A stretch of DNA of 64,000 nucleotides from an uncultured Gemmatimonadales bacterium (GTDB taxonomy: Bacteria; Gemmatimonadota; Gemmatimonadetes; Gemmatimonadales; Gemmatimonadaceae): assembly GCA_963851265.1 (NCBI GenBank), contig CAWKNZ010000002.1, forward strand, positions 1,472,001 through 1,536,000, in the 5' to 3' direction. The notes below the pieces were generated by a model. The model was not told the DNA's origin. It saw only the letters and a list, made by a program, of their open reading frames with translations, and did no database searches. Position numbers and translations under genes: made by a program. Positions 266 through 64,000 of the stretch are shown here, one piece after another (the first letter of the stretch is position 1; each line of letters begins with the position of its first letter).

Positions 266-1242
266 GCGTCCCCCCGCGCCGCGTCGCCCCGCGCGGCGTC
301 GGCCAGCTCCGGGCGGCCGCCGGCCAGCAGGTAGAGCACGGCCATGCGCACGGCCACGCCATTCGTGACCTGCTCGAGGATGACGGAGTGCGGTCCGTCG
401 GCCACGTCGGAATCGATCTCGACGCCGCGGTTCATCGGTCCGGGGTGCAGGATGAGGAGGTCGCGCGGCGCGCGCTCGAGGCGCTCGCGCGTCACGCCGA
501 ACACGCGGTTGTACTCGCGCTGCGACGGGATGTAGCCGGCGGTCATGCGCTCCAGCTGCAGCCGGAGCACGTTGAGCGCCTCGGCCCACTCGATCGCGGC
601 CTCGACGCGGTCGAACACTTCGACGCCGAGCTGGTCGACCGCGTTGGGGAGAAGAGACCGCGGGCCGCACACGCCGACTTCGGCGCCCAACGCCTTCAGG
701 CCCCAGATGTTCGAGCGCGCCACGCGCGAATGGAGCACGTCGCCGACGATGCAGACGCGCCGACCGTCGAGCGACCCGAACCGGTCGCGGAGCGTGAGCA
801 GGTCCAGCAGCCCCTGTGTGGGGTGCTCGTGCGTGCCGTCGCCCGCGTTGATCACGGTCGAGTCGATGCGTTCGGCGAGGAACCGCGCCGCACCCGACGA
901 CCCGTGCCGGATGACGACGGTGTCGATCTTCATCGCCTCGAGGTTCCGCGCCGTGTCGACGAGCGTCTCGCCCTTCGACACGCTCGACCCGGCGGACGCG
1001 ATACTCACCGTGTCCGCGCTCAGGCGCTTCTCGGCGAACTCGAACGACACGCGCGTGCGCGTGGACGCCTCGAAGAACAGGTTGACGACGGTCTGCCCCC
1101 GCAGCGTGGGCACCTTCTTGATCGCCCGCTCGCTCACGGCGCGCAGGGGCGCGGCGGTGTCGAGCACGAGCTCGATCTGGGCGCGCGACAGCGACGAGAG
1201 GCCGAGCAGGTCCTTGCCTAACGAGACGGGTACCGCGCTCAC
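262..1242 (-). CDS. pyrB: Aspartate carbamoyltransferase catalytic subunit
   Basis: [29 protein letters not shown] and [11 protein letters not shown] motifs. Start taken at the GTG overlapping the pyrR stop. Confidence 0.96.
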
Positions 1243-1787
1243 GCCGCCCCCGGCGGCTCGTGCACGAGGACCGCGTCGCGGCCGTCCAGCTCCGTGACGA
1301 GCACGTCGACCCGCCCGCCGGCCGGCACCTCCACGCGTCGGCCGACCACGTCGGCGTGGATCGGCAGCTCGCGCGCGCCGCGGTCGACGAGCACGGCGAG
1401 CGCGATACGCGCCGGGCGTCCGAAGTCGGCCAGCTCGTCGAGCGCGGCCCGCACCGTGCGCCCCGTGTAGAGCACGTCGTCGACGATCACGACGTGCGCG
1501 CCGTCCACGCTCGTGGGCAGCGAGGTCGGCCCGACCACGGGGCGGGGGCCGACCGTCTGGAGGTCGTCGCGGTAGAGCGTGATGTCGAGCGCCCCGCGCG
1601 CGACCTCGACACCCTCGCTCGCGCGAATGGTGCGCGCCAGGCGCTCCGCGAGCTGCACGCCGCGGCGCTGGATTCCGACGAGCAAGAGGGCGTCGGTCCC
1701 GGCGTTCAGCTCGAGGATCTCGCTCGCCATGCGCGTCAACGTCCGCTCGAACGCACGCGCATCGAGCAGGGTGCGCTCCGATGACAT
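1239..1787 (-). CDS. pyrR: Pyrimidine regulatory protein / uracil phosphoribosyltransferase
   Basis: [27 protein letters not shown] and [11 protein letters not shown] motifs; directly upstream of pyrB. Confidence 0.95.
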
Positions 1788-1816
1788 GGCGCGCGAATAT
1801 AGCGGCCGCGCCGCGA

Positions 1817-1903
1817 CGGACAGGGAGGGATTCGAACCCTCGAGACGGTTGCCCGCCCACACGCTTTCCAGGCGTGCGCCTTAAACCACTCGGCCACCTG
1901 TCC
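1817..1903 (-). tRNA. tRNA-Ser (anticodon GGA), CCA not encoded
   Basis: GGACAGGTGGCCGAGTGGTTTAAGGCGCACGCCT-GGA-AAGCGTG...GGGTTCGAATCCCTCCCTGTCCG; long variable arm, T-loop GTTCGAATC. Confidence 0.95.
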
Positions 1904-6455: not shown

Positions 6456-9065
<2,610 letters not shown>

Positions 9066-9155
9066 CTGGGTCGGGCGTTGAACGTGAGAGAGTAACGGCT
9101 CGCGGGGGCGCGCCGACGGCGCTGCTCGACCCGCGCGCGGGACGCCCCAGTGTAG

Positions 9156-9171
9156 AGCAACGCGAGTGCCC
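9156..9171 (-). promoter_or_regulatory. Putative sigma-54 (-24/-12) promoter of clpB
   Basis: Minus strand GGGCAC-TCGCG-TTGCT, exact GG-N10-GC spacing, about 90 nt upstream of the ATG. Confidence 0.6.
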
Positions 9172-9337: not shown

Positions 9338-10150
9338 CTACGCGCGACCGCCCTGAGCGCCGCCCGCGAGCGCGGCACCTTCCCACACCTCGAATGCCCG
9401 GAGCGGGCGCCCGTCCGTCAGGTGCTCGCGAAGGAACTCGCGCAGCAACCGCTGGTGCGCCCGCACCGTCGCGCCGTCCATGGGTACGATCTCGCGCACC
9501 AGCGTCGCGCCGGCGATGTCGTGCGGGTCCGCGCCGAGCCACACGCGGAGCGACGCGCGCGCGGCGACCGGCAGCGTGCGCGTGGTCCCGCCGAGTCGCG
9601 CGCAGCCGTCGCAGAGCGCACCGCCCAACGGCTGGCTGAACCGCGCCGCCGCGTCGGCGTCCAGCTCGCGCCCGCACCGGGCGCAGGCGTCGAGCGACGG
9701 CGTGAAGCCTAACGCGCCGACCAACGCCCACGCGCCGGCGAGCCCGGCCTCGCGCGCGAGTCCCGCCGGCACGGTCTCGATCGCGTCGAGTGCGGCGACG
9801 AGCGCGTCGTACCACGCCGGATCGGGCTCGTCGCGCCCGAAGCGCAGCACGAGTTCCGCGATCACCGCCGCGGTCGTGAACCGATCGAGGTCATGGCCGA
9901 GCGCGACCCGCGCACGCGTCACGTCGAACGCGGCGAGCGTGTGCAGGTCGCGGCCGGACTTCGCGTAGTACGCCGCCTCGCCCTGGGCAAACAGATCGAC
10001 GGCCGACCCGAAGCGGCGTTGTGTCTTACGCGCGCCCTTCGCCATCACCGACACGACGCCGTGCGCGCGCGTCGCGAGCCGCAGGATGCGCGAACTCTCG
10101 GAGTAGAGCTGCGCGTGTAGCACGACGGCGTCGGTCGCGGCAAGGGCCAT
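9338..10150 (-). CDS. recO: DNA repair protein RecO
   Basis: YSESSRILRLAT...GVVSVMAKGARK N-terminal OB fold; LGFTPSLDACARC...CDGC zinc motif. Confidence 0.92.
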   Translation of the reverse strand: MALAATDAVVLHAQLYSESSRILRLATRAHGVVSVMAKGARKTQRRFGSAVDLFAQGEAAYYAKSGRDLHTLAAFDVTRARVALGHDLDRFTTAAVIAELVLRFGRDEPDPAWYDALVAALDAIETVPAGLAREAGLAGAWALVGALGFTPSLDACARCGRELDADAAARFSQPLGGALCDGCARLGGTTRTLPVAARASLRVWLGADPHDIAGATLVREIVPMDGATVRAHQRLLREFLREHLTDGRPLRAFEVWEGAALAGGAQGGRA

Positions 10151-16055: not shown

Positions 16056-17824
16056 CCGGCGGCGTTCGTCAATCCCGAAGCGCCGGTGCTGCGCCCGAGT
16101 TCGGCGTCGAGCGCGGCGTGAAGGATCACCTCGGCTTCGCGCGCCGTGGCGGAGTTCAGCGCCCGCTCCGCGGCGGCGGTCGCGCGGGAGGCATGCACGC
16201 CGCGCACGATGCGCTTCACCACCGCGACGTTGCGCGGTCCCACCGAGAGCTGCCGCAGGCCGAGCCCGAGCAGCGCGTAGGCCATGAGGGGCTGAGACGC
16301 CATCTCACCGCACACGCACACGTCGAGGCCGTGGTCCGCCCCGACCTGCACGACGTGGCGGAGGAGGCGGAGTACGGAAGGGTGCAGCGGCGTGAACCGC
16401 GGCGCGAGCTGCGCATTCCCGCGGTCCACGGCGAGCGTGTACTGCACGAGGTCGTTGGTGCCGATCGAGAAGAACGCGACCTCGCCTACGAACGACTCGG
16501 CGGCCAACGCGGCGGCCGGCGTCTCGATCATGACGCCGAGCGGCACGTCGTCGCGAAACGACGCGCCGCGCGCGCGCAGCTCCGCGGCGGCTTCGCCCAT
16601 GAGCGCCCGTGCGGCGCGCACCTCGTCCACGCTCACCACGAGCGGGAGCATGATGCGCACGTCCCCGTGGGTCGCGGCGCGCAGGAGCGCGCGCAGCTGG
16701 CCCTTGAACAGTTCGGGCTGGTCGAGACACATCCGGATCGCGCGCCAGCCCAGGAACGGGTTGGGCTCGGCCGGGAATCCGCCGACCGGCAGCTTGTCGC
16801 CGCCGATGTCGAAGGTCCGGATCACCACCGGGCGGCCGCGGAACGCGTCGACCACGCGCGCGTAGGCCCGGTACTGCTCGTCCTCGTCGGGCATCGTCGC
16901 CCGACCGACGACGAGGAATTCGGTGCGCAGCAGCCCGACCCCGTCCGCCCCACTCGTCGCCGCCGCGTCGGCCTCCTCCGGCAGATCGACGTTGGCGCGC
17001 AGCGTCACGCACACGTCGTCGCGCGTGACCGCGTCCAGCGCGGAGAGCTGGCGCAACTCGGCCGTCTCCTGCACTTCGAGCTGCGCGCGCGCCGCATACG
17101 CCGCGAGTTCCGTCGCGTCGGGGTCGAGCGCGAGCGTGCCCGCCGCCCCGTCGAGCACCGCGCGCTCGCCACCGCGGAGCCGCGACGTCGCGTCGCGCAG
17201 GCCGACCACGGCGGGCAGGCCTAACGACCGCGCGAGGATCGCGATGTGCGACGTGTTCGTCCCGGCGTCGGTGGCGATCGCGGAGATCGCCTCGCGGTCG
17301 AGCTGGACCGTCAGCGACGGCGTCAGGTCGTGCGTGACGAGGATCGCCCCCGCGCCCTTGGGCACCGAGATCGGGTCGTAGTCGGGCAGGTCGAGCAGCA
17401 GCGATAGGAGGCGGATCTGCACGTCCGTCAGGTCGCCGACGCGCTCGCGGAGCATCGCGTGCGGATGCTTCGCGAACTGCTGGCGCCACTCGAGCATCGC
17501 CAGGTCGACCGCCTTCTCGGCGCCGAGGTTCTGGCGCACCAGCGTCTCCATCTGGTCGACGAGCGCCTCGTCGCGGAGGATCGAGAGCTGCACGTCGAAG
17601 ATCGCGGCCTCGTCGGGCCCGGCCTGGCGCTCGGCGCGCGCGCGGACGAGCTCGAGCCGGTCGGCCGCGCCGGCGATCGCGGCGCGGAGCCGCGCCAACT
17701 CCGCGGGGATCATGTCGTCGGCGACGATCCGCTGGGGCACGTCGGGCACCTCCCAGCGCAGGAGGTGCACGGGCCCCACGACGATCCCCGGCGACGCGGC
17801 GATCCCCGCGAGTTGCAGCCGCAC
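16052..17824 (-). CDS. ptsI: PTS enzyme I (phosphoenolpyruvate-protein phosphotransferase)
   Basis: TSHIAILARS phospho-His motif, GVGLLRTEF, RTFDIGGDK, FSIGTNDLVQY. Confidence 0.95.
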   Translation of the reverse strand: MRLQLAGIAASPGIVVGPVHLLRWEVPDVPQRIVADDMIPAELARLRAAIAGAADRLELVRARAERQAGPDEAAIFDVQLSILRDEALVDQMETLVRQNLGAEKAVDLAMLEWRQQFAKHPHAMLRERVGDLTDVQIRLLSLLLDLPDYDPISVPKGAGAILVTHDLTPSLTVQLDREAISAIATDAGTNTSHIAILARSLGLPAVVGLRDATSRLRGGERAVLDGAAGTLALDPDATELAAYAARAQLEVQETAELRQLSALDAVTRDDVCVTLRANVDLPEEADAAATSGADGVGLLRTEFLVVGRATMPDEDEQYRAYARVVDAFRGRPVVIRTFDIGGDKLPVGGFPAEPNPFLGWRAIRMCLDQPELFKGQLRALLRAATHGDVRIMLPLVVSVDEVRAARALMGEAAAELRARGASFRDDVPLGVMIETPAAALAAESFVGEVAFFSIGTNDLVQYTLAVDRGNAQLAPRFTPLHPSVLRLLRHVVQVGADHGLDVCVCGEMASQPLMAYALLGLGLRQLSVGPRNVAVVKRIVRGVHASRATAAAERALNSATAREAEVILHAALDAELGRSTGASGLTNAAG

Positions 17825-25162: not shown

Positions 25163-25186
25163 GCTCGAACTCCTGTAGCGGGTGCG

Positions 25187-48250: not shown

Positions 48251-49033
48251 ATGCAACACAAGGCCACGCTTGCGGATACGCTCGCGCTGATGCGCGACCT
48301 GCGCGCGCGCTGCGAGTGGGACCGCGCGCAAACGCACAGCTCGCTGCGACCGTACCTGATCGAGGAAGCACACGAGGTCGACGACGCGATCCGCGAGGGC
48401 GACGACGCCGCCCTGCGCGAGGAGCTCGGCGACCTGCTGCTTCAGGTCGTCTTCCACGCCGTCGTCGCCGAGGAGCGAGGGGCGTTCGACCTCGGCGACG
48501 TCGCGCAGTCGCTCGTCACGAAGATGCGCGACCGGCACCCGCACCTGTACCCGACCGACGGCGCCGACGGCCCGACCGAGCGCCCGAGCTGGGAGGGGAT
48601 GAAGGCCCGCGCGCGCAAGGGCGGCATCGACCGCGGGCTGCCGGCCGCCCTCCCCGCCCTCCACCGCGCGCATCGGCTGCAGGACCGCGCCGCGGGCGTG
48701 GGCTTCGACTGGCCTAACGCGGACGGGCCGGCCGACAAGGTCGCCGAGGAACTCGGCGAGGTGCGCCAGGAGCTCGCGGCGGGCGGCGGAGCGGGCGGGC
48801 GCGACCACGGCGCGGTCGAAGCCGAACTCGGCGACCTGCTGTTCGCCGTCGTCAACCTGTGTCGCAAGAGCGGCGTGCACGCCTCGCTCGCGCTCGACCG
48901 CGCGAACGCCAAGTTCACGAGCCGGTTCAACGCCGTCGAGCGCCTCGCGGCCGAACGCGGAATCGACGTGGCCGACGCCGGGATCGAGGTCCTCGACGGG
49001 CTGTGGGACGAGGTGAAGGCCGCGGAGCGCTGA
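48251..49033 (+). CDS. mazG: Nucleoside triphosphate pyrophosphohydrolase MazG
   Basis: CEWDRAQT, EEAHE, EELGDLLLQVVFH, GFDW, ELGDLLF. Confidence 0.93.
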   Translation: MQHKATLADTLALMRDLRARCEWDRAQTHSSLRPYLIEEAHEVDDAIREGDDAALREELGDLLLQVVFHAVVAEERGAFDLGDVAQSLVTKMRDRHPHLYPTDGADGPTERPSWEGMKARARKGGIDRGLPAALPALHRAHRLQDRAAGVGFDWPNADGPADKVAEELGEVRQELAAGGGAGGRDHGAVEAELGDLLFAVVNLCRKSGVHASLALDRANAKFTSRFNAVERLAAERGIDVADAGIEVLDGLWDEVKAAER

Positions 49034-49059: not shown

Positions 49060-50361
49060 CTACGGCCGGAGCCGCTCCATCATCCGCGGGAACGGGATCA
49101 CCTCGCGGATGTGCTCGATGCCGCAGATCCAGGCCACCGTCCGTTCGAGCCCGAGCCCGAAGCCCGAGTGGACGAAGCTGCCGTACTTCCGCAGGTCGAG
49201 GTACCACCCGTACGCGTCGAGGGGCAGCCCTTCCTCGATGATCCGCGCGCGCAGCTTGTCGTAGTCGTCCTCGCGCTGTGACCCGCCGACGATCTCGCCG
49301 CGGCCTTCGGGCGCGAGCAGGTCCGAGCATCGCACGGTCCGCGGGTCGGCCGGGTTCTCTTTCATGTAGAAGGCCTTCGCCTCCTTCGGGTAGTTCACGA
49401 CGAACACCGGCCGGTCGTACGCGTCGACGATCTTGGCCTCGTCGGGCGCGCCGAGGTCCTCGCCCCACACGGTCTCGCTCCCCTTGCTCCGCACCAGTTC
49501 GACCGCGTCGCCGTAATCGAGGCGCACGAAGGGCGGCGTGATCAGCGTAAGCCGCGCGGTGTCGCGCTCGAGCACCTTCAGCTCCTCGCCACGCCGCTCG
49601 AGCGTACGCTCGACGAGGTACGCGACGAGCTCCTCCTGCAGCCGCATGTTGTCGTCCTGATCGAACCACGCCATCTCGGGCTCGATCATCCAGAACTCGG
49701 TGAGGTGCCGCCGCGTCTTCGACTTCTCCGCGCGGAACGTCGGTCCGAACGTGTAGATCCGGCCTAACGCCGCGGCGAGCGCCTCGCCGTAGAGCTGCCC
49801 GGTCTGAGCGAGGTAGGCGGTGCCCTCGTCGAAGTACTCGGTCGAGAACAGCCCCGAGCGCTCGCCGATCGCGGCGGTGAGGATCGGCGTGTCGCAGCGG
49901 ACGAACTCGCGCGCGTAGAAGAAGTCGTGGATCGCCTGCTCGATCTCGTGCCGCACGCGCAGGATCGCGGCCTGCCGCTGGCTTCGCAGCCAGAGGTGGC
50001 GGTGGTCGAGCAGGAAGTCGACGCCGTGCTCCTTCGGCTGGATCGGGTAGTCCGGGTCGCTCGCGCCGAGCAACTCTACGCTGTCGGCGCCCATCTCGTA
50101 CCCGCCGGGCGCCCGCGCATCGGCCCGGACCTCGCCGGTGACCGCCACGGCGCTCTCGAGCGTGAGCGCGCCGAACGTGGCCCACGTCTCCGGGCTCACC
50201 GCATTCTTGACGAGCACGGCCTGCAGCACGCCCGTGCCGTCACGCACGACGAGGAAGGCCACCTTGCCCGACGATCGGACACGCGTGACCCATGCGCGTA
50301 CCGTGACGCGCGATCCGACATGGCGACCCAACTCGGCGATCCGGGCGAACGGAGATGTCAT
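49060..50361 (-). CDS. asnS: Asparagine--tRNA ligase
   Basis: RHLWLRS, FGPTFRAEKSKTRRHLTEFWMIEPE, GEIVGGSQRE, GFGLGLER. Confidence 0.95.
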   Translation of the reverse strand: MTSPFARIAELGRHVGSRVTVRAWVTRVRSSGKVAFLVVRDGTGVLQAVLVKNAVSPETWATFGALTLESAVAVTGEVRADARAPGGYEMGADSVELLGASDPDYPIQPKEHGVDFLLDHRHLWLRSQRQAAILRVRHEIEQAIHDFFYAREFVRCDTPILTAAIGERSGLFSTEYFDEGTAYLAQTGQLYGEALAAALGRIYTFGPTFRAEKSKTRRHLTEFWMIEPEMAWFDQDDNMRLQEELVAYLVERTLERRGEELKVLERDTARLTLITPPFVRLDYGDAVELVRSKGSETVWGEDLGAPDEAKIVDAYDRPVFVVNYPKEAKAFYMKENPADPRTVRCSDLLAPEGRGEIVGGSQREDDYDKLRARIIEEGLPLDAYGWYLDLRKYGSFVHSGFGLGLERTVAWICGIEHIREVIPFPRMMERLRP

Positions 50362-52726: not shown

Positions 52727-54817
52727 CTACCCGACGCGGAACAGCTCCATCGCGCGGGCGTACCGCGCGCCGAGGATCGCGCGGAACTCACGGTGCTCCG
52801 GGCGCGCCAGCTCCGGATCGCTCGCGAGCAGCAGGTCGGCCGACGCGCGCGCGCGGAGGTTGAGTTCCTCGTCGCGCACGGGGTCGGCGATGCGGAACGC
52901 GGGATCGCCGCTCTGCTGCTTGCCGAACAGGTCGCCCATTCCCCGCAGCTGCAGGTCGGCGCGCGCGATCTCGAACCCGTCCTCCGTGCCGACGAACACG
53001 CGCAGCCGTTCGGCCGCCTCGTTGCCGACGTCGCCGAGCAGCACGCAGTAGCTCTGCTCGCCGCCGCGCCCGACGCGCCCGCGCAGCTGGTGCAGCTGTG
53101 AGAGGCCGAAACGCTCAGGGTGCTCGATCAGCATCACCGTCGCGTTCGCGACGTCGATGCCGACCTCGATCACCGTCGTGGCCACGAGCACGTCGAGCTC
53201 GCCGTCGCGGAAGGCGCGCATCACTGCGTCCTTGTCGTCCCCCGGAAGCTTGCCGTGCAGCAACCCGAGCCTGCGGTGCGCGAGCGCGCCGCCGCGCAGC
53301 TCGTCGAAGGCCACGGTCGCGGCCTTGAGGTCGAGCTTTTCGCTCTCGGCGACCAGTGGGTAGACGATGTACGCCTGCCGCCCGGCCGCGACCTGCTGGT
53401 CGACGAAGGCGAGCACGCGGTCGCGCGCGTTCTCCGGGCGGAGCGCGCTCGTGATCGGACGGCGTCCCGGCGGCTTCTCGTCGAGGATGCTCACGTCGAG
53501 GTCGCCGTGCAGCGTGAGCGCGAGCGACCGCGGGATGGGGGTTGCCGTCATGAGCAGCACGTCGGGCGTGCGACCCTTCGCGCCTAACGCCTTCCGCTGC
53601 TCCACGCCGAACCGGTGCTGCTCGTCGATCGCGACGAAGCCGAGCCGCGCGAAGTGGGTCGCCTCCTGCACGAGCGCGTGCGTGCCGACCACGAGGAGCG
53701 GCTCGTCGCGCGCCATGCGCGCGGCCGCTTCGCGCCGCTCCCGCGCGCCGAGCCGGCCGGTGACGAGCACCGGTTCGATCCCGAGGGGCGCGAGGAGGCG
53801 CGCGAAGGTGCGCTGGTGCTGCTCGGCGAGCAGTTCGGTGGGCACCATCACGGCCGCCTGCGCGCCGTTCTCCATCGCGAGCAGCGAGGCGAACAGCGCG
53901 ACGATCGTCTTCCCGCTGCCGACGTCGCCCTGGAGCAACCGGTGCATCCGGCGCGCGCTCGTCATGTCGATCACGATCTCGCGGAGCGCGCGCGTCTGGG
54001 CGCCGGTCAGCTCGAACGGCAACGCGGCCTTCAGCTTGGACGTCAGGTCCCGCCGGTTGACGAGGGCCACCCCGTCGCGCCCCTCGCGCGCGATCGCGTT
54101 CGCGCGGCGGTGAAGGATCTGCCACGCGAGCAGTTCCTCGAACGCGAGCCGCGCGCGCCCGTCCAGCGCCTCGGCGATCGACGTCGGACGGTGCACCATG
54201 CGCAGCGCGTCGGGCAGGTCCGGGACGCCCGCGTCGCGCAGAATCGCCGCGGGTAGGTGCTCGCGAATTTGCGGCAGGAGCTCGTCGAGGTGCGCCTCGA
54301 TCAGCGCCCGGATCTGCTTGAAGCTGAGGCCCTCGGTCGCCGGGTACACCGACAGCACGCGACCGCCGACGGTGCCGGCGTCCTCGGGCCCGAGGTTGAC
54401 GAACTCGCGCGGCTGCAGCTGACGACCGTGGAAGAAGCGGACGCTACCACTCAGCAGGAGCATGTCGTTCTTCTGGATCACGCGGTCGAGGAACGGCTGG
54501 CCCGGCCAGCTCGCCTCGAGCATCCCGCTCGCGTCCTGCACCACCGCCTGGAAGATGCGGAGCCCCTTCCGCGTCGGCACCACGCCCTTGGAGATCACGC
54601 GCCCGATCACCGTGCCGTCCATCCCGGGTTCGAGCGCGGCGATCCGCGTGACGGTGCTCGCGTCCTCGTAGCGGTGCGGTACGTGGAGGAGGAGGTCGCG
54701 CGCGGTGTGAATTCCGAGGCGGCCGAGCGCTTCGGCGCGCGCCGGCCCCACGCCCTTGATGTAGGTGACCGGCGTGTCCAGCGTGAGGCGCGGGGCGGCG
54801 CTGCGCGACGCGGGCAC
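52727..54817 (-). CDS. recG: ATP-dependent DNA helicase RecG
   Basis: LLQGDVGSGKT, DEQHRFG, MTATPIPRSL, QLHQLRGRVGRG. Confidence 0.97.
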   Translation of the reverse strand: MPASRSAAPRLTLDTPVTYIKGVGPARAEALGRLGIHTARDLLLHVPHRYEDASTVTRIAALEPGMDGTVIGRVISKGVVPTRKGLRIFQAVVQDASGMLEASWPGQPFLDRVIQKNDMLLLSGSVRFFHGRQLQPREFVNLGPEDAGTVGGRVLSVYPATEGLSFKQIRALIEAHLDELLPQIREHLPAAILRDAGVPDLPDALRMVHRPTSIAEALDGRARLAFEELLAWQILHRRANAIAREGRDGVALVNRRDLTSKLKAALPFELTGAQTRALREIVIDMTSARRMHRLLQGDVGSGKTIVALFASLLAMENGAQAAVMVPTELLAEQHQRTFARLLAPLGIEPVLVTGRLGARERREAAARMARDEPLLVVGTHALVQEATHFARLGFVAIDEQHRFGVEQRKALGAKGRTPDVLLMTATPIPRSLALTLHGDLDVSILDEKPPGRRPITSALRPENARDRVLAFVDQQVAAGRQAYIVYPLVAESEKLDLKAATVAFDELRGGALAHRRLGLLHGKLPGDDKDAVMRAFRDGELDVLVATTVIEVGIDVANATVMLIEHPERFGLSQLHQLRGRVGRGGEQSYCVLLGDVGNEAAERLRVFVGTEDGFEIARADLQLRGMGDLFGKQQSGDPAFRIADPVRDEELNLRARASADLLLASDPELARPEHREFRAILGARYARAMELFRVG

Positions 54818-57680: not shown

Positions 57681-57786
57681 TCGGCTCGAGAGTTCGAGTC
57701 GCGCTGCGTCGTCGGCTCGCCACGAAGCCGCGCGGGCGACCGGTCGCGGCACGCCCGCCACGACCGCGGCAGGCGCACCGCGCGGC

Positions 57787-59169: not shown

Positions 59170-60375
59170 TCAGTCCATCTGGCGGCGGATGAACGTGGGG
59201 ATCTCCATGTCGCTGAGATCCTGCGCCGGAAGGCGCTCGGGGGGAACGTACGGCGTCGCGCGCGCGCGCGGGGCCTCGGCGGCCGGGGCGGCGCGCGGCG
59301 CCGGGGAGATGACGCGCGAACCGCCGAGCGGGGTACGGTCGCGGCTGTCACGGTTGAACGGCAGGACGTTGGGCCCCTTCACCGCGTCGCCGGCCGACGA
59401 CCCGCCGAGCGCGAGCACCTTGTCGAACCCGGTCGCGATCACCGTCACGCGGATCTCGCCCTGCATCGCGGGCTCGTGCACCGCGCCGAAGATGATCTCG
59501 GCGTCATCCCCGACGGCGTCGTGGACGATCTCGTTGATCTGGTGCACTTCGCCTAACGTCAGGTCGGCGCCGCCGGTGATGTTGACGAGCACGCCCGTCG
59601 CGCCCGACACGCTCACGTTGTCGAGCAGCGGCGACGAGATCGCCTGCTGCGCGGCCTCCATGGCGCGGTTCTCGCCGCGACCCATCCCCGTGCCCATGAG
59701 TGCCGAGCCGCCGTTCTGCATGACGGTGCGCACGTCGGCGAAGTCGACGTTCACGAGGCCGGTCACCGAGATGAGCGACGAGATGCCCTGCGTCGCGTGC
59801 AGCAGGACCTCGTCGGCCTTCTTGAGCGCGTCCTGGAACGGGATCCCCTTTCCGACGACGGCGAGCAGGCGCTCGTTAGGCACGACGATCATCGTGTCCA
59901 CGTGCTTGCGCATCTCGCTGATCCCCTGCTCCGCCTGGCGCATGCGCTTGCGCCCCTCGAACAGGAACGGCTTGGTGACGATGCCGACGGTGAGCGAGCC
60001 CGCCTCGCGGGCGAGCTCCGCCACCACCGGCGCCGCGCCCGTGCCCGTCCCGCCGCCCATCCCGCACGTGATGAACACGAGGTCGGTGTTCGCGACGACG
60101 CGACTCACCTCGTCGCGGTTCTCGTCCACGGCCTGACGCCCGATCTCGGGGCGCGCGCCCGCGCCGAGCCCGCGCGTGAGCTTCTTCCCGATCTGGATCT
60201 TCACGTCGCTCTTCGATCCGAGGAGCGCTTGCGCGTCCGTGTTGACCGAGATGAACTCGACACCTTCCAGGTGCTCCTCGATCATGCGGTTGACGGCGTT
60301 GCCGCCGCCGCCGCCAACGCCCACGACTTTCATGCGGGCGTTTTGCGCGGCGCTCTCCTCGAACTCGAAGATCAT
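59170..60375 (-). CDS. ftsZ: Cell division protein FtsZ
   Basis: [19 protein letters not shown] tubulin signature, C-terminal [11 protein letters not shown]. Confidence 0.98.
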
Positions 60376-60766: not shown

Positions 60767-62032
60767 TCAGAAAAAATCCTGCAGCCAAAGCTTCGCGCGC
60801 TCGCGCCACTTGTCGACGGACGGCGCGCCCGGGGACGCGCGCCGCGGGGCGACGCCGGCGGTCGTGGTGCCCAACGCCGCGCGCGACGCGCCGTAGAGCG
60901 CGAGTCCCGCGACCGTCGCCTCGCGCGGCGTGTCGAGCGTCTCGCGCAACCCCGTCACGGCGTCGAGCGGACGGCCGACGCGCACCGTCGCGCCGAAGAC
61001 GTCGCGCGCGAGCTCCGCCGTTCCTGGAAGCTCCGCACCACCGCCGGTCAGGACGTACCCGCCGCCCACCTTGGCGCCAAAGCCGGCGTCGTGCACGCCT
61101 CGCACGACGAGGTCGAAGATCTCGTCGAGGCGCTGGTGGATGATGTGCGCGAGCAACTCGCGCGGCACCTCGCGGCTCGCGTGGGTCGCCGAGCCGGGAA
61201 GCGCGATCACCTCGTCGCCCGAGACCAACGTCTCGAGCGCGGCCCCGTACTGCTCCTTCAACTGCTCGGCGTCCGAGTGCGACACGTTGACGCCGTGCAC
61301 GAGATCGCTCGTCACGTGCGCGCCGCCGTAGGGGACGGTCGCGAGGTGGCGGATCTTTCCCTCGTGGAACACCGCGACGTCGGTGGCCGACGCGCCCATC
61401 TCGACGAGGGTGACGCCGAGTTCTTTCTCGTCCTCCGTCAACACGGCGAGCGCGCTCGCGAGCGGCTCGAGGACGAGCTCGCGCACGCGGTGGCCCGCGC
61501 GCTCCACCGCCTTGCGGACGTTGGCCGCCGGCTGACTGCCGATGGTCACGAGATACATCTCGGTCTCGAGCCGCATGCCGTTCATCCCGACCGGATCCTG
61601 GATGCCCGCGGTGCGGTCGACGGTGTACTCCTGCGGGATCGCGTGCAGCAACTCGCGGTCCGGCGGGATGGCGAGCGCGCGCGCGACGCCGTTCACGCGG
61701 TCGACGTCGGCGCGCGTGATCTCGTCGCCGGCCACCGCGACGATGCCCTGACTGGTCACCGCGCGCACGTGCTCGCCGGCGATGCCGCAGTACACGCCGT
61801 CCGGGCGCGCGCCGGCCATCCGCTCCGCCTCATCGAGCGCGGTCCGCACGGAGCGCGTCGCCTCCTCGATGTCGGCGATCGCGCCGCGGCGCAGCCCGGT
61901 GGTGCGCGCCTGGCCGACGCCTAACACGCGCACGCCGGGGCGGCGCGGCAGCTCGCCGACGACCTCGGCGATCACGGCCGTGGTGCGCGCCGACCCGATG
62001 TCGAGTCCGGCGACGATGCGTTCCTGCTTCAT
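60767..62032 (-). CDS. ftsA: Cell division protein FtsA
   Basis: GLDIGS, LEPLASA, VLTGGGA, amphipathic C-terminus WLQDFF. Confidence 0.96.
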   Translation of the reverse strand: MKQERIVAGLDIGSARTTAVIAEVVGELPRRPGVRVLGVGQARTTGLRRGAIADIEEATRSVRTALDEAERMAGARPDGVYCGIAGEHVRAVTSQGIVAVAGDEITRADVDRVNGVARALAIPPDRELLHAIPQEYTVDRTAGIQDPVGMNGMRLETEMYLVTIGSQPAANVRKAVERAGHRVRELVLEPLASALAVLTEDEKELGVTLVEMGASATDVAVFHEGKIRHLATVPYGGAHVTSDLVHGVNVSHSDAEQLKEQYGAALETLVSGDEVIALPGSATHASREVPRELLAHIIHQRLDEIFDLVVRGVHDAGFGAKVGGGYVLTGGGAELPGTAELARDVFGATVRVGRPLDAVTGLRETLDTPREATVAGLALYGASRAALGTTTAGVAPRRASPGAPSVDKWRERAKLWLQDFF

Positions 62033-62092
62033 GCGAAGGGGCGTGCGGGGAGGGCGCTGCTGGTACGGCGCAAGGAAGGGGGCCGCCGGGCG

Positions 62093-63082
62093 CTACGGCA
62101 GGCGCGCGACGACCTGGTCGCGAAAGCGGAGGTCCAGCTCGGCCGCGCGCACGCCGCGGCGCGCGAGGTCGCGCTCGACGGGGTCGAGCTCGGCGAAGCG
62201 AGCCGCGTCGACGTCGACCGCGGCTCGGACGAGCACGGGGGCGGCCGGCGCGGCGTCCGCGTTAGGCGCTGCGCCGGGCGCGGCCACCGCCGGAGGTGCG
62301 GCGGCGAGCACGAAATCGAGCTCGTCGTGCTCCCGAGCGGGAGCGCCCGGCGCGGCGCGTCGCGCGCCGAACCCGAGCGGCGTCGCCGACGGCGGCGCGG
62401 CCCTCGGCGCGCGTGCCGCCTCGAGCACCCGCGCGTACACGCGGGGCGCGTCGGCGCGCAACGCGCCGAGCGCGCGCAGCAAAGACGGGTCCGCACTGGC
62501 CGCGAGCGGCACGTCGAGCCCGCCGACCCGCGACGGGGCGAGCGGGAGCGCCGCTCCGGTCGCGTCGTACACGACCAGCGCGCCGCGCGCCCCCGTCACG
62601 ACCGCCACGGGCACGCGCTCGCGCACCACGACGCGCAGCACGCCGGGCAGCCGGCGTTCGACGCGCGCCTCCGCGACGAGCGGGTCGGCCGCGATGCGGC
62701 GGGTCATCGCGTCGAGGTCGGCCCAGACCGACACCGACGTGTCGACGGCCAGTCGCGCGACGAGCGCGCGCGGCGAGGCGTAGCGCGCGCCCTCGATCTC
62801 CACACGCCGGACGCGGAAGAACGCGAGCCGCGACAGCGCGCGCGGCCCCCACCACCCCGCCGACGCGATCGCGCCGAGCGCGCCGGCCACGGCGGCCGTC
62901 CAGACCGCACGTCGCACGCGGGCGCGGCGCCGCGAGGCGGGGGCCACCGCGTCCGCGGGCGTCGGCTCCGCGCCCGCGCCGCCCTCGCGGCCCGGTGCGT
63001 TAGGCGGTGCGGCCGCGCCGCGGCGCGCCCGCGTGCTCGCCGGGGCGGGCGCGGCGTCGGGCGGCGACAACAGGCCGTTCAC
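62093..63082 (-). CDS. ftsQ: Cell division protein FtsQ/DivIB
   Basis: Single TM, POTRA (FRVRRVEIEG...VERRLPG..RERVP), C-terminal LDLRFRDQVVAR; lies between murC and ftsA. Confidence 0.88.
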   Translation of the reverse strand: MNGLLSPPDAAPAPASTRARRGAAAPPNAPGREGGAGAEPTPADAVAPASRRRARVRRAVWTAAVAGALGAIASAGWWGPRALSRLAFFRVRRVEIEGARYASPRALVARLAVDTSVSVWADLDAMTRRIAADPLVAEARVERRLPGVLRVVVRERVPVAVVTGARGALVVYDATGAALPLAPSRVGGLDVPLAASADPSLLRALGALRADAPRVYARVLEAARAPRAAPPSATPLGFGARRAAPGAPAREHDELDFVLAAAPPAVAAPGAAPNADAAPAAPVLVRAAVDVDAARFAELDPVERDLARRGVRAAELDLRFRDQVVARLP

Positions 63083-64000
63083 GCGTCCACCGACGCGCGC
63101 GTGCGCGCGGCCGCACCAGCGCGGTCGTCCGACGCCGCCGAGAGCGCGTCGAGCAGCTCGGGACCGGTGCGCGTGACGTCACCCGCGCCGATCGTGAGCA
63201 CGACGTCGCCCGGGCGCACGCGGTCGGCCAGCGCACGCGCGAGCGCGTCGCGCGGCCCGCGCCACGCGGCTGGCGCGCCCGCCGCGCGCATCGCATCGCT
63301 GACCAGGTCCGCGGTCACGCCCGCGATGGGCTGCTCGCGCGCGGGGTACAGATCGGCGACGAGCGCGACGTCCGCCCCGGCGAGGGCCCGGGCGAAGTCG
63401 GGGGCGAAATCGCGCGTGCGCGTGTACAGGTGCGGCTGGAAGGCCGCCACGATCCGTCGACCCGGGTACGCGGCGCGGGCCGCGGCAAGCGTCGCGTCGA
63501 GCTCCGTCGGGTGGTGCGCGTAGTCGTCGATCACGAGCACGCCGGCGGCGTCGCCGAGGCGCTGGAACCGCCGCTCGACCCCGCCGAAGCCCTCGAGCCC
63601 GGGCCGGAGCGCCGCGAACGGCGCGCCGAGCAGCAGCCCGACCGCGACCGCCGCGAGCGCGTTCCGGACGTTGTGCAGTCCGGGAACGGCGAGCGCGAGC
63701 GTGCCTAACGTACGCCCGTCCCACACGACCTCGCACGCCGACCCGCCGGCGGCCGTCGGACGCACGTCGCGCGCGACGAGGCGCGCGTCGGAGTGCGCGT
63801 CCGCCCCGGCCGCGGCCGCGCTGTAGCGCACCACCTCCGAGTCGGCACGCGTCGGCAGCGTCGTCGCGCCCGCGTCGTCGGCGCACAGTACGACCAGCCG
63901 CGCGCGGCCGACGAACTCCGCGAACGCGGCACGGATCGCGGCCAGGTCGGCGTAGATGTCGAGGTGGTCGGCTTCGACGTTCGTGACGACCGCCACGCCA
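63079..64000 (-). CDS. murC: UDP-N-acetylmuramate--L-alanine ligase (3' part; runs off window end)
   Basis: VTNVEADHLD, PGLHNVRNA, DDYAHHPTE, FQPHLYTRT, GAGD. Confidence 0.95.
   Translation of the reverse strand, partial: GVAVVTNVEADHLDIYADLAAIRAAFAEFVGRARLVVLCADDAGATTLPTRADSEVVRYSAAAAGADAHSDARLVARDVRPTAAGGSACEVVWDGRTLGTLALAVPGLHNVRNALAAVAVGLLLGAPFAALRPGLEGFGGVERRFQRLGDAAGVLVIDDYAHHPTELDATLAAARAAYPGRRIVAAFQPHLYTRTRDFAPDFARALAGADVALVADLYPAREQPIAGVTADLVSDAMRAAGAPAAWRGPRDALARALADRVRPGDVVLTIGAGDVTRTGPELLDALSAASDDRAGAAARTRASVDA

What the first reader, a model, noticed from the sequence alone, without database searches (positions are those of the whole stretch)
1216..63709. Over-represented dispersed octamer YGTTAGGC embedded in core genes: candidate uptake-sequence, Chi-like or binding-site system
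Seen in sequence: 25 exact copies of GTTAGGC/GCCTAAC found by eye (19 read GCCTAAC on +, 6 read GTTAGGC on +). The base 5' of GTTAGGC is always a pyrimidine (20 C, 5 T). The word sits in four reading contexts: G-TTA-GGC (Leu-Gly, 18 copies), G-CCT-AAC (Pro-Asn, 4), GCC-TAA stop (2) and GTT-AGG (Val-Arg, 1). It is therefore a DNA-level word and not an amino-acid motif. A rough mononucleotide estimate at about 73% GC gives 5-6 heptamers, and fewer are expected since TTA and CCT codons are disfavoured at this GC. Established knowledge: Neisseria DUS, Pasteurellaceae USS, Chi, KOPS and cyanobacterial HIP1 are short words accumulated inside coding sequence in this way. Inference: this is a lineage-specific signal of that class. 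An intact comEC in the window makes a DNA-uptake role plausible, but a Chi-like site, nucleoid-protein site or methylation-linked repeat fits equally. I do not know of a described function for this word.
Basis: partly seen in the sequence, partly recalled or inferred. Interest (0 to 1): 0.85.

Follow-up and report, generated by a model that had tools for sequence, protein, structure and literature searches.

The report
Genome-wide GTTAGGC word, Gemmatimonadaceae
A soil bacterium and scattered relatives have written the short DNA word (C)GTTAGGC about 1,800 times into genes, stop codons and spacers using their rarest codons, much as Neisseria and Haemophilus carry DNA-uptake tags, and the word equals the recombination core of integron gene cassettes.

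Summary
The window holds 25 GTTAGGC (shuffles: mean 1.8, max 6) and its 4.6-Mb Gemmatimonadaceae genome holds 1,762 (96-397 expected).

It is a double-stranded DNA word, not a peptide, RNA or codon signal:
- TTA makes up 27% of Leu codons in NCG-Leu-GGC but 0.2% in NNC-Leu-GGC.
- Antisense frames, stop codons and spacers are used as heavily.

Strand polarity is absent or weak. Copies avoid each other within about 500 bp. Occupancy rises with gene GC3.

The trait is on/off. It occurs in 16 of 401 Gemmatimonadota genomes and in at least 6 separate clades of an FtsA-FtsZ tree. The same Leu-Gly sites are recoded in parallel.

The word equals the R box of the order's integron attC sites. However, intI, comEC, comEA, a pilin, a methyltransferase and Vsr do not track it.

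Best reading (about 0.4): an uptake-sequence-like tag spread by recombination-coupled drive, with an unknown reader.

This scan had already found the same word eight times in this genome and once in another.

The parts
1216..1222 (-). word copy, CGTTAGGC; sense frame xxG-TTA-GGC (Leu-Gly)
6759..6765 (-). word copy, CGTTAGGC; sense G-TTA-GGC inside clpB-type gene (6456-9188 -)
7656..7662 (-). word copy, CGTTAGGC; sense G-TTA-GGC inside clpB-type gene
9707..9713 (-). word copy, CGTTAGGC; sense G-TTA-GGC inside recO (9338-10150 -)
17219..17225 (-). word copy, CGTTAGGC; sense G-TTA-GGC inside ptsI-type gene (16052-17824 -)
18590..18596 (-). word copy, CGTTAGGC; sense G-TTA-GGC
25186..25192 (+). 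word copy, CGTTAGGC; on the opposite strand it supplies GCC-TAA, the stop codon of the gene ending at 25187
27801..27807 (-). word copy, CGTTAGGC; sense G-TTA-GGC
30337..30343 (-). word copy, TGTTAGGC; sense G-TTA-GGC
30841..30847 (-). word copy, CGTTAGGC; sense G-TTA-GGC inside argS (30229-32595 -)
33401..33407 (+). word copy, TGTTAGGC; sense G-TTA-GGC in a + strand ORF by my gene call
35279..35285 (-). word copy, CGTTAGGC; sense G-TTA-GGC inside methylmalonyl-CoA mutase gene (33989-35626 -)
35608..35614 (-). word copy, TGTTAGGC; sense GTT-AGG-C (Val-Arg) near the start of the mutase gene
40193..40199 (+). word copy, CGTTAGGC; supplies the GCC-TAA stop of the MiaB/RimO-type gene (40194-41546 -)
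41313..41319 (-). word copy, TGTTAGGC; sense G-TTA-GGC inside the MiaB/RimO-type gene
47861..47867 (-). word copy, CGTTAGGC; sense G-TTA-GGC
48712..48718 (-). word copy, CGTTAGGC; frame uncertain (GTT-AGG-C by my gene call; competing ORFs on both strands)
49762..49768 (-). word copy, CGTTAGGC; sense G-TTA-GGC. No relative aligned at this site has the word
53582..53588 (-). word copy, CGTTAGGC; sense G-TTA-GGC inside recG (52727-54817 -). Word-poor relatives read GCCGAGCG here
59551..59557 (-). word copy, CGTTAGGC; sense G-TTA-GGC inside ftsZ. The same site carries the word in 3 separate clades; word-poor loci read GCCGAGCG (CTC-GGC)
59875..59881 (+). word copy, CGTTAGGC; antisense G-CCT-AAC (Pro-Asn) inside ftsZ. 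Shared by 3 clades; word-poor loci read CGTTGGGC or CGTTCGGC
61919..61925 (-). word copy, TGTTAGGC; sense G-TTA-GGC inside ftsA (60767-62032 -)
62261..62267 (+). word copy, CGTTAGGC; antisense G-CCT-AAC inside ftsQ-type gene (62093-63082 -)
62999..63005 (+). word copy, CGTTAGGC; antisense G-CCT-AAC inside ftsQ-type gene
63703..63709 (-). word copy, CGTTAGGC; sense G-TTA-GGC. The same site carries the word in 4 separate clades

Best explanation
YGTTAGGC (mostly CGTTAGGC, followed by G or A more often than C or T) is a recognition word on double-stranded DNA. An unidentified sequence-specific protein reads it. A fragment-level, recombination-coupled process keeps it at roughly one copy per 1-3 kb.

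The best fit is the uptake-sequence mechanism of Neisseriaceae and Pasteurellaceae. DNA fragments that carry the word are preferentially taken up, or preferentially recombined, and then replace the homologous allele. Point mutations that create the word at tolerant places are therefore transmitted more often (molecular drive), even against strong codon bias. Tolerant places are Leu-Gly as TTA-GGC, Pro-Asn read on the other strand, TAA/TAG stop codons and spacers.

Shown here:
- The word acts at the DNA level.
- It is used on both strands.
- Copies repel each other at short range.
- It arises by substitution at pre-existing sites.
- It occurs patchily, with the identical extended motif in separate clades.

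Inferred, not shown:
- That a protein reads the word.
- That the process is DNA uptake or recombination.
For: Abundance
- 1,762 copies against 96-397 expected under Markov orders 0-3.
- All 12 contigs carry 0.33-0.55 copies per kb.

The exact word is required
- Composition-matched one-letter variants number 8-75 copies.
- TTA is 781 of 2,882 Leu codons (27.1%) in NCG-Leu-GGC, 4 of 2,316 (0.2%) in NNC-Leu-GGC and 6 of 599 (1.0%) in NCG-Leu-GGG.
- CCT is 209 of 1,121 Pro codons before AAC after a G-ending codon, and 3 of 511 after a C-ending codon.

Both strands are used
- Occupancy of eligible peptide contexts: sense Leu-Gly 990/10,925 (9.1%), antisense Pro-Asn 210/1,512 (13.9%), antisense xGC-CTA-ACx 80/1,937 (4.1%), sense Val-Arg 34/3,716 (0.9%).
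- 130 of 450 TAA stops and 83 of 769 TAG stops lie in the word.
- Spacers hold 0.60 copies per kb against 0.32 in genes. In tandem spacers 73 copies lie with and 72 against gene direction.

Diminishing returns per fragment
- Leu-Gly copies closer than 100/300/500 bp number 0/15/57, against 25/70/112 when 990 copies are drawn at random from the eligible sites (0 of 1,000 draws as low).
- The same holds between copy types: 3/26/73 against 21/78/130.
- It holds again in 100 kb of an independent word-rich genome, G012: 4 pairs under 100 bp against 14.4 expected, P=0.0005.

Link to recombination or residence time
- The TTA share in the exact context rises from 13.0% to 38.7% across GC3 quintiles of genes.

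Origin by substitution
- Word-poor relatives read GCCGAGCG (CG-CTC-GGC) where word-rich ones read GCCTAACG. 9 of 31 mapped sites carry the word in two or more separate clades.
- The one-step form TTG is raised to 8.8% in the word's context, against 0.9%.

Maintenance
- 6 of 8 window copies are kept in the closest locus L001, although third-codon positions are only 57.7% identical (1,354/2,345).

A single reader
- The same extended motif appears in separate clades. Position -1 is C in 105/125 (G012), 23/23 (L009+L018), 18/21 (L008) and 22/33 (L079); position +1 is mostly G.

Machinery present in G000
- comEC, comEA next to pilB/pilT, dprA, two secretins and pilins.

Match to described uptake sequences
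- These features match DUS/USS as described in PMC1939737 and PMC2817400 (passages read): excess in non-coding DNA, no orientation bias, rarity of singly mismatched forms, origin by point mutation, and reading-frame bias that does not depend on the strand.
Against: - No uptake, competence or receptor is shown for any Gemmatimonadota. My search found no paper joining 'Gemmatimonad' and 'uptake sequence' (0 papers).
- The competence-type genes do not discriminate. comEC is in 31/31 and comEA in 31/31 relatives. The orphan pilin is in 1 of 2 word-rich and 3 of 3 word-poor genomes tested.
- DUS dialects track phylogeny across a whole family. This word is on/off: 16 of 401 genomes, and 61 of 81 ftsZ loci with essentially none. 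It is identical in separate clades. The word-poor loci show no alternative word.
- Short-range repulsion was not seen in two 120-kb samples of genus mates (G004, n=50; G001, n=34).
- Known uptake sequences sit in frames with preferred codons (PMC2817400). This word uses the rarest codons, so the force must be much stronger than described there.
- A weak excess on the majority (leading-proxy) strand in spacers cannot be excluded. It was 50:28 (p=0.017) in one of five settings and 18:9 in the C2 replichore test.
- One 45-kb stretch of G000 with plenty of eligible sites has no copy, and the model does not explain it.
- All frame counts rest on my own crude gene caller.
Confidence: 0.4

Rival explanations
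1. The word is the binding site of an intracellular chromosomal protein, and each site is individually useful to the cell. Candidates are a nucleoid-associated or bridging protein, a loading or nicking site for repair, or a non-polar recombination hotspot. Selection on cell physiology keeps the sites, not transmission bias.
For: - About one site per 1-3 kb with short-range repulsion fits 'one site per domain is enough'.
- Both strands are used.
- The exact word is needed.
- The same extended motif appears in separate clades.
- Copies are kept between genus mates beyond the synonymous background.
Against: - Most of the family does without it: 61 of 81 ftsZ loci and 385 of 401 genomes. It is therefore an accessory trait, not a core chromosome function.
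- No regional pattern is conserved. The one large gap around parAB in G000 is absent in G012 and much smaller in G004 and G001.
- No candidate protein was found.
- The rise with GC3 is not predicted.
Confidence: 0.2
2. The word is read by the integron machinery. Either an IntI-type tyrosine recombinase, or a factor carried with integrons or cassettes, recognises the R box GTTAGGC. The chromosomal copies would then be secondary (attG-like) sites or a by-product of that factor.
For: - The word is identical to the R' box, and its complement to the R'' box, of attC sites in cassette arrays of related genomes. There were 30 R''...R' pairs 65-129 bp apart in L081-L083.
- In 28 of those 30 pairs the base before GTTAGGC is C or T, and none of the 30 has T after it. 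This matches the genome-wide flanks C 79% / T 14% before and only 5% T after.
- GTTRRRY is the IntI core and secondary-site motif (PMC10127599).
- Integrons are known in Gemmatimonadota (PMC8618304). IntI scored over the curated cut-off in 18 of 31 relatives.
- A mobile determinant would explain the same word appearing in separate clades.
Against: - intI does not track the word. Uninterrupted intI over the cut-off is in 6 of 14 word-rich and 14 of 22 word-poor genomes. It is intact in genomes with about 3,900-4,500 copies of CGTTAGGC (G235, G292, G299), and no intI over the cut-off was found in the word-rich G008, G018 and G396.
- intI of G000 is split by a serine-recombinase insertion.
- Only 8 attC-like pairs exist among the 1,762 copies.
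- Recombination at sites inside essential genes would be harmful (PMC10127599), and nothing explains why substitutions would create such sites.
Confidence: 0.12
3. The word is the product of a mutational or repair bias, as has been proposed for HIP1 and for Vsr-linked words. A sequence-specific modification and a repair nuclease would turn near-matches into the word, and the word itself would have no function.
For: - The one-step neighbour TTG is raised, and CTG and CTC are lowered, in the word's context.
- The same eligible sites are converted in parallel in separate clades.
- The on/off distribution is typical of accessory modification and repair genes.
Against: - A bias acting on each site alone does not predict that copies avoid each other within 500 bp, both within and between copy types.
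- Vsr was found in 3 of 31 genomes, all word-poor, and in 0 of 10 word-rich ones.
- The only large DNA methyltransferase I found (Eco57I/MmeI type) is vertically inherited in 30 of 31 genomes.
- The needed changes run towards A/T in a 73% G+C genome.
Confidence: 0.1
4. The word is a Chi-like site that regulates an AddAB-type helicase-nuclease and marks self DNA during double-strand-break repair.
For: - It is a 7-8-base over-represented asymmetric word.
- Two adjacent large ORFs with PD-(D/E)XK nuclease domains, AddAB/AdnAB-like, are present, and no RecC was found.
- Raw counts put 73% of coding copies on the inferred leading strand of C2 0.8-1.83 Mb (189:71). There is a weak spacer excess of 18:9 and 50:28.
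Against: - The raw skew is accounted for by gene orientation (79% and 75% of coding bases co-oriented) together with the abundance of Leu-Gly.
- Occupancy in leading against lagging genes is 9.2% against 7.0% (p=0.14). The antisense frame gives inconsistent directions under the two strand assignments.
- Stop-codon copies show no polarity (odds ratios 0.36-1.18, all non-significant).
- Tandem spacers give 73:72.
- Spacer and edge copies together give 29:30 (p=2.6e-5 against a 75% skew).
Confidence: 0.06
5. The word is an RNA- or translation-level signal: a rare TTA codon acting as a regulatory pause, or an RNA-binding motif.
For: - 56% of copies (990 of 1,762) are sense TTA-GGC, and 999 of 1,328 TTA codons precede GGC.
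- A tRNA-Leu(UAA) gene exists.
Against: - Antisense frames have equal or higher occupancy (13.9% against 9.1%).
- Stops and spacers carry the word in both orientations.
- The base before the codon matters more than 100-fold.
- Repulsion holds between sense and non-sense copies.
Confidence: 0.01

Closest known systems
DNA uptake sequences: DUS of Neisseriaceae (receptor ComP, a minor pilin) and USS of Pasteurellaceae
   Same: - Thousands of exact copies of a short asymmetric word.
- One-letter variants are much rarer.
- Most copies lie in genes, in a few tolerated frames on either strand.
- There is an excess in non-coding DNA and near gene ends.
- There is no strong chromosome polarity.
- Spacing is more even than chance.
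- Copies arise by point substitution at pre-existing sites.
(Here. For DUS/USS: passages of PMC1939737 and PMC2817400; abstracts of PMC2397512 and PMC3630211 from the listing. ComP as receptor is recalled.)
   Different: - Uptake bias, competence and a receptor are not shown.
- The word is shorter (7-8 bases against 9-12).
- It is written with the rarest codons, not preferred ones.
- The trait is on/off among genera, and even within one genus (G288 against G235, G292 and G396).
- The word is identical in separate clades, where DUS dialects follow the tree.
- It equals the integron core.
HIP1 (GCGATCGC) of cyanobacteria
   Same: It is a hyper-abundant short word of unknown function, written into coding DNA, patchily distributed among related lineages, and suspected to spread by substitution. 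These properties of HIP1 are recalled; no paper was read here.
   Different: HIP1 is a palindrome and has been linked to methyltransferases. This word is asymmetric, and I found no methyltransferase or Vsr that tracks it.
Integron core site / R box (GTTRRRY; canonical GTTAGGC) of attC and attI, and secondary (attG) sites
   Same: The sequence is identical letter for letter. The attC sites of cassette arrays in the same order carry GCCTAAC...YGTTAGGCV, and the flanking preferences are similar. The motif and the cleavage point are described in PMC10127599.
   Different: - More than 99% of copies are solitary, without the paired hairpin architecture (8 pairs).
- They lie inside conserved genes at synonymous positions.
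- They do not track intI.
Chi sites (RecBCD/AddAB) and KOPS (FtsK)
   Same: Short, over-represented, asymmetric words embedded in genes. An AddAB-like gene pair is present.
   Different: Both are defined by co-orientation with replication. Here polarity is absent or weak once coding context is controlled.

Membership tests
DNA uptake sequences (DUS/USS) | Hundreds to thousands of copies, far above composition-based expectation | tested here: met
   1,762 copies against 96-397 expected under Markov orders 0-3. 25 in the window against 1.8.
DNA uptake sequences (DUS/USS) | The exact word is much commoner than singly mismatched forms | tested here: met
   GTTAGGG 23, GTTAGCC 36 and [ACT]TTAGGC 8-14, against 1,762. 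TTA share is 27.1% in NCG-Leu-GGC and 1.0% in NCG-Leu-GGG.
DNA uptake sequences (DUS/USS) | No orientation bias with transcription or around the chromosome | tested here: inconclusive
   There is no transcription-strand preference. No significant replication polarity appears in coding frames or stop codons. Spacer copies give 50:28 in one of five settings and 18:9 in the C2 test. The replichores are inferred, because the genome is in 12 contigs.
DNA uptake sequences (DUS/USS) | Copies in genes sit in a few tolerated frames, and density is higher in non-coding DNA | tested here: met
   Density is 0.60 per kb in spacers against 0.32 in genes, and 1.33 per kb in convergent spacers.
DNA uptake sequences (DUS/USS) | Copies arise by point substitution in pre-existing sequence, not by insertion | tested here: met
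   Orthologous sites read CG-CTC-GGC in word-poor loci and CG-TTA-GGC in word-rich ones, without length change.
DNA uptake sequences (DUS/USS) | Spacing is more even than chance, with no clustering | tested here: met
   Met in G000 and in G012. Not seen in two 120-kb samples of G004 and G001.
DNA uptake sequences (DUS/USS) | Competent cells prefer DNA that carries the word | not testable with these tools
   Needs uptake or transformation assays.
DNA uptake sequences (DUS/USS) | A dedicated receptor (ComP-type pilin in Neisseria) | tested here: inconclusive
   Eight pilin-like proteins are in G000. The orphan pilin tested occurs in word-rich and word-poor genomes alike. The specificity of any pilin is unknown.
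DNA uptake sequences (DUS/USS) | The word or its dialects are shared by the whole family and follow its phylogeny | tested here: not met
   The trait is on/off: 16 of 401 genomes, with at least 6 changes on the FtsA-FtsZ tree. Word-poor loci have no alternative word. One relaxed form, CGTTAGG+N, occurs in L036.
Chi (RecBCD/AddAB) | Marked co-orientation with the leading strand, independent of gene orientation | tested here: not met
   Spacer and edge copies give 29:30 on C2 0.8-1.83 Mb. A weak bias is not excluded.
KOPS (FtsK) | Very strong skew that switches at dif | tested here: not met
   Occupancy differs by a factor of 1.3 or less between leading- and lagging-strand genes.
HIP1-type palindromic words | Palindromic word | tested here: not met
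   GTTAGGC and its complement GCCTAAC differ (seen directly in the sequence).
Integron attC site | Core sequence GTTRRRY with inverse core RYYYAAC | tested here: met
   GTTAGGC fits GTTRRRY (PMC10127599). The attC sites of relatives use exactly this pair.
Integron attC site | Paired R''...R' boxes 50-150 bp apart that form a hairpin at cassette boundaries | tested here: not met
   Only 8 R''...R' pairs within 30-200 bp among 1,762 copies, against 5 in the converse order and 20 same-strand pairs.
Integron attC site | Dependence on an integron integrase | tested here: not met
   Uninterrupted intI over the cut-off is in 6 of 14 word-rich and 14 of 22 word-poor genomes.
Vsr-type repair-driven words | A Vsr endonuclease is present in genomes that carry the word | tested here: not met
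   PF03852 was found in 3 of 31 genomes, all word-poor.

The most novel reading that the evidence does not exclude
A horizontally mobile DNA reader, whose specificity is the integron R box CGTTAGGC, has entered several Gemmatimonadales genera independently. By biasing which DNA fragments are taken up or recombined, it has rewritten thousands of synonymous sites in each host.

Cassette arrays carry about two copies per cassette. Such a reader would therefore couple DNA acquisition to the soil pool of integron cassettes. That would be a link between transformation-like uptake and integrons that has not been described.
Probability: 0.12. Interest if true: 0.92.

Novelty: new variant of a known kind. 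Interest (0 to 1): 0.74.

Why it matters
Sequence-tagged self-recognition of DNA is experimentally established only in Neisseriaceae and Pasteurellaceae (recalled).

- **Extends the phenomenon.** This would be a third, independent case in a poorly studied soil phylum.
- **Shows the strength of the force.** TTA is the second-rarest of the six Leu codons overall (1.0%; CTA 0.9%) yet takes 27-39% of Leu codons in the exact context. The force is therefore much stronger than the one described for USS.
- **Points to integrons.** The identity with the integron core raises a testable link between DNA acquisition and gene-cassette capture.

Practically, the word is a sharp marker for binning, for calling foreign islands and for tracing DNA exchange in Gemmatimonadaceae.

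Tried and rejected
1. **ParB/parS exclusion zone.** The only outlier gap is 45,086 bp at G000 C1:182876-227962. It holds mnmG-parA-parB...mnmE and two perfect plus one near parS-like palindromes. Eligible CGCTCGGC runs at 0.93 per kb there against 0.71 genome-wide. Relatives do not keep the gap. G012 has copies inside parB and beside parS. G004 and G001 have gaps of only 7.8 and 8.7 kb around parS. Rejected as a functional exclusion; the G000 gap stays unexplained.

2. **intI as reader, or as incompatible with the word.** No association either way.

3. **Candidate determinants by presence or absence in 31 relatives.**
   - comEC: 31/31.
   - comEA: 31/31.
   - Eco57I/MmeI-type methyltransferase: 30/31, with identities that follow kinship.
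   - Vsr: 3/31, all word-poor.
   - Orphan pilin: found in G012, G006, G010 and G014, not in G008.
   - A small secreted helix-hairpin-helix protein: found only in the window's own genus, so it is not the shared determinant.

4. **Cassette-borne reader.** ORFs next to the split intI and in the C10 cassette array are toxin-antitoxin pairs, IS transposases and small unknown proteins. Nothing there points to a DNA reader.

5. **Dialects in word-poor lineages.** The top 7-mers of 57 ftsZ loci of at least 12 kb show only ordinary coding words (z 5-9), except CGTTAGG+N in L036 and a modest GCCAATG excess in L040.

6. **Canonical parS.** No match with two or fewer mismatches in G000.

7. **Tandem-repeat explanation of the regularly spaced copies in G021.** No tandem repeats were found. 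They are cassette arrays.

8. **Literature.** A full-text search for the word gave 4,851 papers. The 20 listed were about unrelated subjects, mostly methods and constructs. 'Gemmatimonad' + 'uptake sequence' gave 0 papers. GTTRRRY + GTTAGGC together gave 0 papers.

9. **Not attempted.**
   - Read mapping for polymorphism.
   - Methylation data.

Full report
**Observation.** One search finds 25 GTTAGGC in the window, 19 on the minus strand and 6 on the plus strand, at the coordinates given. 100 dinucleotide-preserving shuffles gave mean 1.82 and at most 6. The base before the word is C in 20 and T in 5. By my gene calls, 18 copies are sense G-TTA-GGC, 3 are antisense G-CCT-AAC, 2 are sense GTT-AGG-C and 2 supply a GCC-TAA stop. 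The window carries ordinary core genes: clpB, recO, ptsI, ribBA, argS, methylmalonyl-CoA mutase, comEC, a MiaB/RimO-type gene, alr, recG and ftsQAZ.

**Genome-wide abundance.** The window is G000:C2:1472001-1536000 of a 4,601,510-base assembly in 12 contigs with 72.6-74.4% G+C.
- The genome holds 1,762 copies, at 0.33-0.55 per kb on every contig.
- Markov models of order 0-3 expect 397, 160, 96 and 127.
- 29% of all TTA trinucleotides of the genome lie inside the word (1,762 of 6,001).
- Composition-matched one-letter variants are 50-170 times rarer: GTTAGGG 23, GTTAGGA 36, GTTAGCC 36, CTTAGGC 10.
- The preceding base is C 1,396, T 243, G 69, A 54. The following base is G 953, A 390, C 336, T 83.
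- The working motif is therefore YGTTAGGC, rarely followed by T.

**It is a DNA word, not a codon, peptide or RNA signal.** No gene finder was on hand, so I called 3,754 genes with a codon-score ORF caller of my own. All frame counts carry that caveat.
- Of 1,328 TTA codons, 999 are followed by GGC and 1,198 follow a G-ending codon.
- In the exact context NCG-Leu-GGC, TTA is 781 of 2,882 Leu codons (27.1%). In NNC-Leu-GGC it is 4 of 2,316, and in NCG-Leu-GGG it is 6 of 599.
- On the other strand, CCT is 209 of 1,121 Pro codons in G-Pro-AAC and 3 of 511 in C-Pro-AAC.
- Occupancy of all contexts that could encode the word: sense Leu-Gly 990/10,925 (9.1%), antisense Pro-Asn 210/1,512 (13.9%), antisense xGC-CTA-ACx 80/1,937 (4.1%), sense Val-Arg 34/3,716 (0.9%).
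- The apparent sense-strand bias therefore reflects how common Leu-Gly is. It is not a strand preference.
- 130 of 450 TAA stops and 83 of 769 TAG stops lie in the word.
- 263 copies are fully intergenic, at 0.60 per kb against 0.32 in genes. Convergent spacers are densest, at 1.33 per kb. In tandem spacers, 73 copies lie with and 72 against gene direction.
- A tRNA-Leu(UAA) gene exists.

**Polarity.** On C2, gene orientation and GC skew both switch near 1.35 Mb. Coding bases on the plus strand go from 79% to 25%, and skew goes from +0.006 to -0.011. I took this point as a terminus.
- Raw counts put 189 coding copies on the inferred leading strand and 71 on the lagging strand.
- Occupancy of Leu-Gly sites is 9.2% in leading-strand genes and 7.0% in lagging-strand genes (p=0.14).
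- The Pro-Asn frame gives opposite directions under my two strand assignments.
- Stop-codon copies show no polarity (odds ratios 0.36-1.18).
- Purely non-coding copies give 18:9 in this region. With a local majority-strand proxy they give 50:28 (p=0.017), 21:10, 7:4, 20:11 and 9:6 across five settings.
- Non-coding and edge copies together give 29:30.
- A KOPS-like or strong Chi-like skew is excluded. A weak leading-strand preference is not.

**Spacing and gradients.**
- Counts per 10 kb are Poisson-like (mean 3.81, variance 3.83), but copies avoid each other at short range.
- Among the 990 Leu-Gly copies, 0, 6, 15 and 57 neighbours lie closer than 100, 200, 300 and 500 bp. Random draws from the 10,925 eligible sites give 25, 48, 70 and 112, and 0 of 1,000 draws are as low.
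- The avoidance also holds between copy types: 3, 9, 26 and 73 against 21, 50, 78 and 130. It is therefore not a cost of clustered TTA codons.
- In 100 kb of G012, an independent word-rich genome with 1.25 copies per kb, 4 pairs lie under 100 bp against 14.4 expected (P=0.0005).
- In two 120-kb samples of the genus mates G004 and G001 (50 and 34 copies), no avoidance was seen.
- The TTA share in the exact context rises from 13.0% to 38.7% across quintiles of gene GC3. Density rises with local G+C, from 0.25 to 0.55 per kb.
- I read this as more copies where DNA is long-resident or recombines most. That step is inference.

**Distribution among relatives.** Record titles place the window in Gemmatimonadaceae, and its nearest loci are MAGs.
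- CGTTAGGC is abundant in all 5 genomes of the window's genus (727-2,415 copies) and in G008, G012 (6,360), G017, G018 and G030. The other 21 relatives have 3-194 copies, below the reversed-word control.
- I called a genome word-rich if it had at least 300 copies and at least twice the control. Among 401 Gemmatimonadota genomes, 16 meet this: 13 of 95 in the window's family, 3 of 166 in a second family (all in one genus), 0 of 5 in a third family and 0 of 135 in the remaining families. One genus holds three genomes with 3,479-4,141 copies and one with 66.
- Four unpublished genomes (G011, G078, G117, G198) enter these tallies, only as word-poor counts.
- In 80 ftsZ loci plus the window, 14 are rich, 61 poor and 6 intermediate. 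The rich ones form six well-supported clades, and a quick FtsA+FtsZ tree needs at least 6 changes of state. The sister of the window's clade (L003) has no copy in 13.6 kb. This is a two-gene tree with 21 of 78 inner branches unsupported.
- Word-poor loci show no alternative word. L036 carries CGTTAGG followed by any base (7 copies).
- At orthologous sites, word-poor loci read GCCGAGCG (CG-CTC-GGC) where rich ones read GCCTAACG. 9 of 31 mapped sites carry the word in two or more clades.
- 6 of 8 window copies are kept in L001, although third-codon positions are only 57.7% identical.
- The flanks are the same in separate clades.

**The integron connection.** Earlier notes of this scan pointed out that the word equals the integron core. 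I checked this.
- The regularly spaced copies in word-poor G021 and G019 are cassette arrays. They contain 30 attC-like pairs, GCCTAAC...YGTTAGGC[G/A/C], 65-129 bp apart. In 28 of the 30 pairs the base before GTTAGGC is C or T.
- GTTRRRY is the IntI core and secondary-site motif (PMC10127599, passages). Integrons are known in the phylum (PMC8618304, passage).
- In G000 only 8 such pairs exist. They lie beside a split intI and in a cassette array of toxin-antitoxin genes and IS elements.
- intI does not track the word. It is uninterrupted and over the curated cut-off in 6 of 14 rich and 14 of 22 poor genomes.

**Search for a reader.** comEC, comEA, an orphan pilin, an Eco57I/MmeI-type methyltransferase and Vsr do not follow the trait. 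A small secreted helix-hairpin-helix protein is confined to the window's genus. G000 does have a full type IV pilus and competence-type gene set and an AddAB-like pair, but no RecC.

**Interpretation.** The exact-word requirement, use of both strands, excess in unconstrained DNA, origin by substitution and mutual avoidance are the hallmarks described for DUS/USS (PMC1939737, PMC2817400).
- The avoidance argues against a site-by-site mutational bias.
- The near absence of polarity argues against Chi and KOPS.
- I therefore favour an uptake-sequence-like tag spread by recombination-coupled drive (0.4).
- The rivals, in order, are a chromosomal protein site (0.2), an integron-linked reader (0.12), repair bias (0.1), Chi-like (0.06) and RNA/translation (0.01).
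- It fails one family feature of DUS: there are no family-wide dialects. The same word in separate clades suggests a mobile reader.

**Novelty.** No paper in the library joins Gemmatimonadota with uptake sequences. The scan itself had already reported this word eight times in this genome and once in another genome.

Noticed in passing
G000:C1:182876-227962 (L093-L095), outside the window: A 45,086-bp stretch has no copy of the word; the next largest gap is 22 kb. G+C is normal (0.738) and eligible CGCTCGGC is above average. It holds mnmG, parA, parB and mnmE. The gap is not kept in G012, G004 or G001, so it is specific to this genome and unexplained.
   Followed up: yes
G000:C1:192709 and 195715 (also 186276 with 2 mismatches); G004:C1:1524698, 1527620; G001:C5:732446, 735453; G012:C51:62899: The window's genus uses a G+C-rich parS-like 16-base perfect palindrome, present twice and flanking mnmG upstream of parA. 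G012 has the canonical parS once. G000 has no canonical parS with two or fewer mismatches.
   Followed up: partly
G000:C6:3005-6230 (L091): The integron integrase gene of this genome is split: model positions 2-265 and 260-313 lie about 2 kb apart. A large serine recombinase gene (890 aa) sits on the other strand between them. attC-like pairs and a BrnT-type cassette lie next to it.
   Followed up: partly
G000:C10:188000-205000 (L092): A cassette array without an integrase. It holds small ORFs of toxin-antitoxin type (DUF5615/DUF433, BrnT, HicAB, DUF4926/DUF6883), interrupted by IS481-, IS110- and DDE-type transposases, and has 4 attC-like pairs.
   Followed up: partly
G000:C7:579717-585511 (L096) and orthologues in 30 of 31 relatives: An Eco57I/MmeI-type N6-adenine methyltransferase (1,141 aa) sits next to an SNF2-type helicase and is inherited vertically across the whole order. 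Many orthologues show one in-frame TGA (or TAG), so the gene may be two ORFs or recoded in those genomes.
   Followed up: no
L036 (13.8 kb ftsZ locus of a related MAG): Seven copies of CGTTAGG are followed by any base (t, g, g, c, t, a, g), but only one full GTTAGGC is present. This is a relaxed 'dialect' of the word in one clade.
   Followed up: partly
L040, L011, L072, L052 (ftsZ loci of word-poor relatives): Other local oddities. GCCAATG occurs 16 times against 3 expected in L040. An ACCAGCCACCAATCAC-like element recurs in L011. There are 23 runs of seven G/C against 1.7 expected in L072. CCTCATTCC clusters occur in L052.
   Followed up: no
G000:C2 near 1,350,000 (about 120-190 kb left of the window): Gene orientation switches from 79% to 25% on the plus strand and GC skew changes sign. 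A Xer-like recombinase gene lies at C2:1346667-1347503. This is probably the replication terminus, and it explains why nearly all window genes are on the minus strand.
   Followed up: partly
window 47057-50185 (-), 50437-52320 (-), 55824-57914 (-): The 1,042-aa ORF has alanine racemase domains only in residues 688-1037, so its long N-terminal part may be a false extension or a separate gene. Two large ORFs (627 and 696 aa) have no Pfam family.
   Followed up: no
Genus g42: G235, G292, G396 against G288: Three genomes of one genus carry 3,479-4,141 copies of CGTTAGGC, and a fourth carries 66. This is the sharpest natural contrast for finding the determinant.
   Followed up: partly
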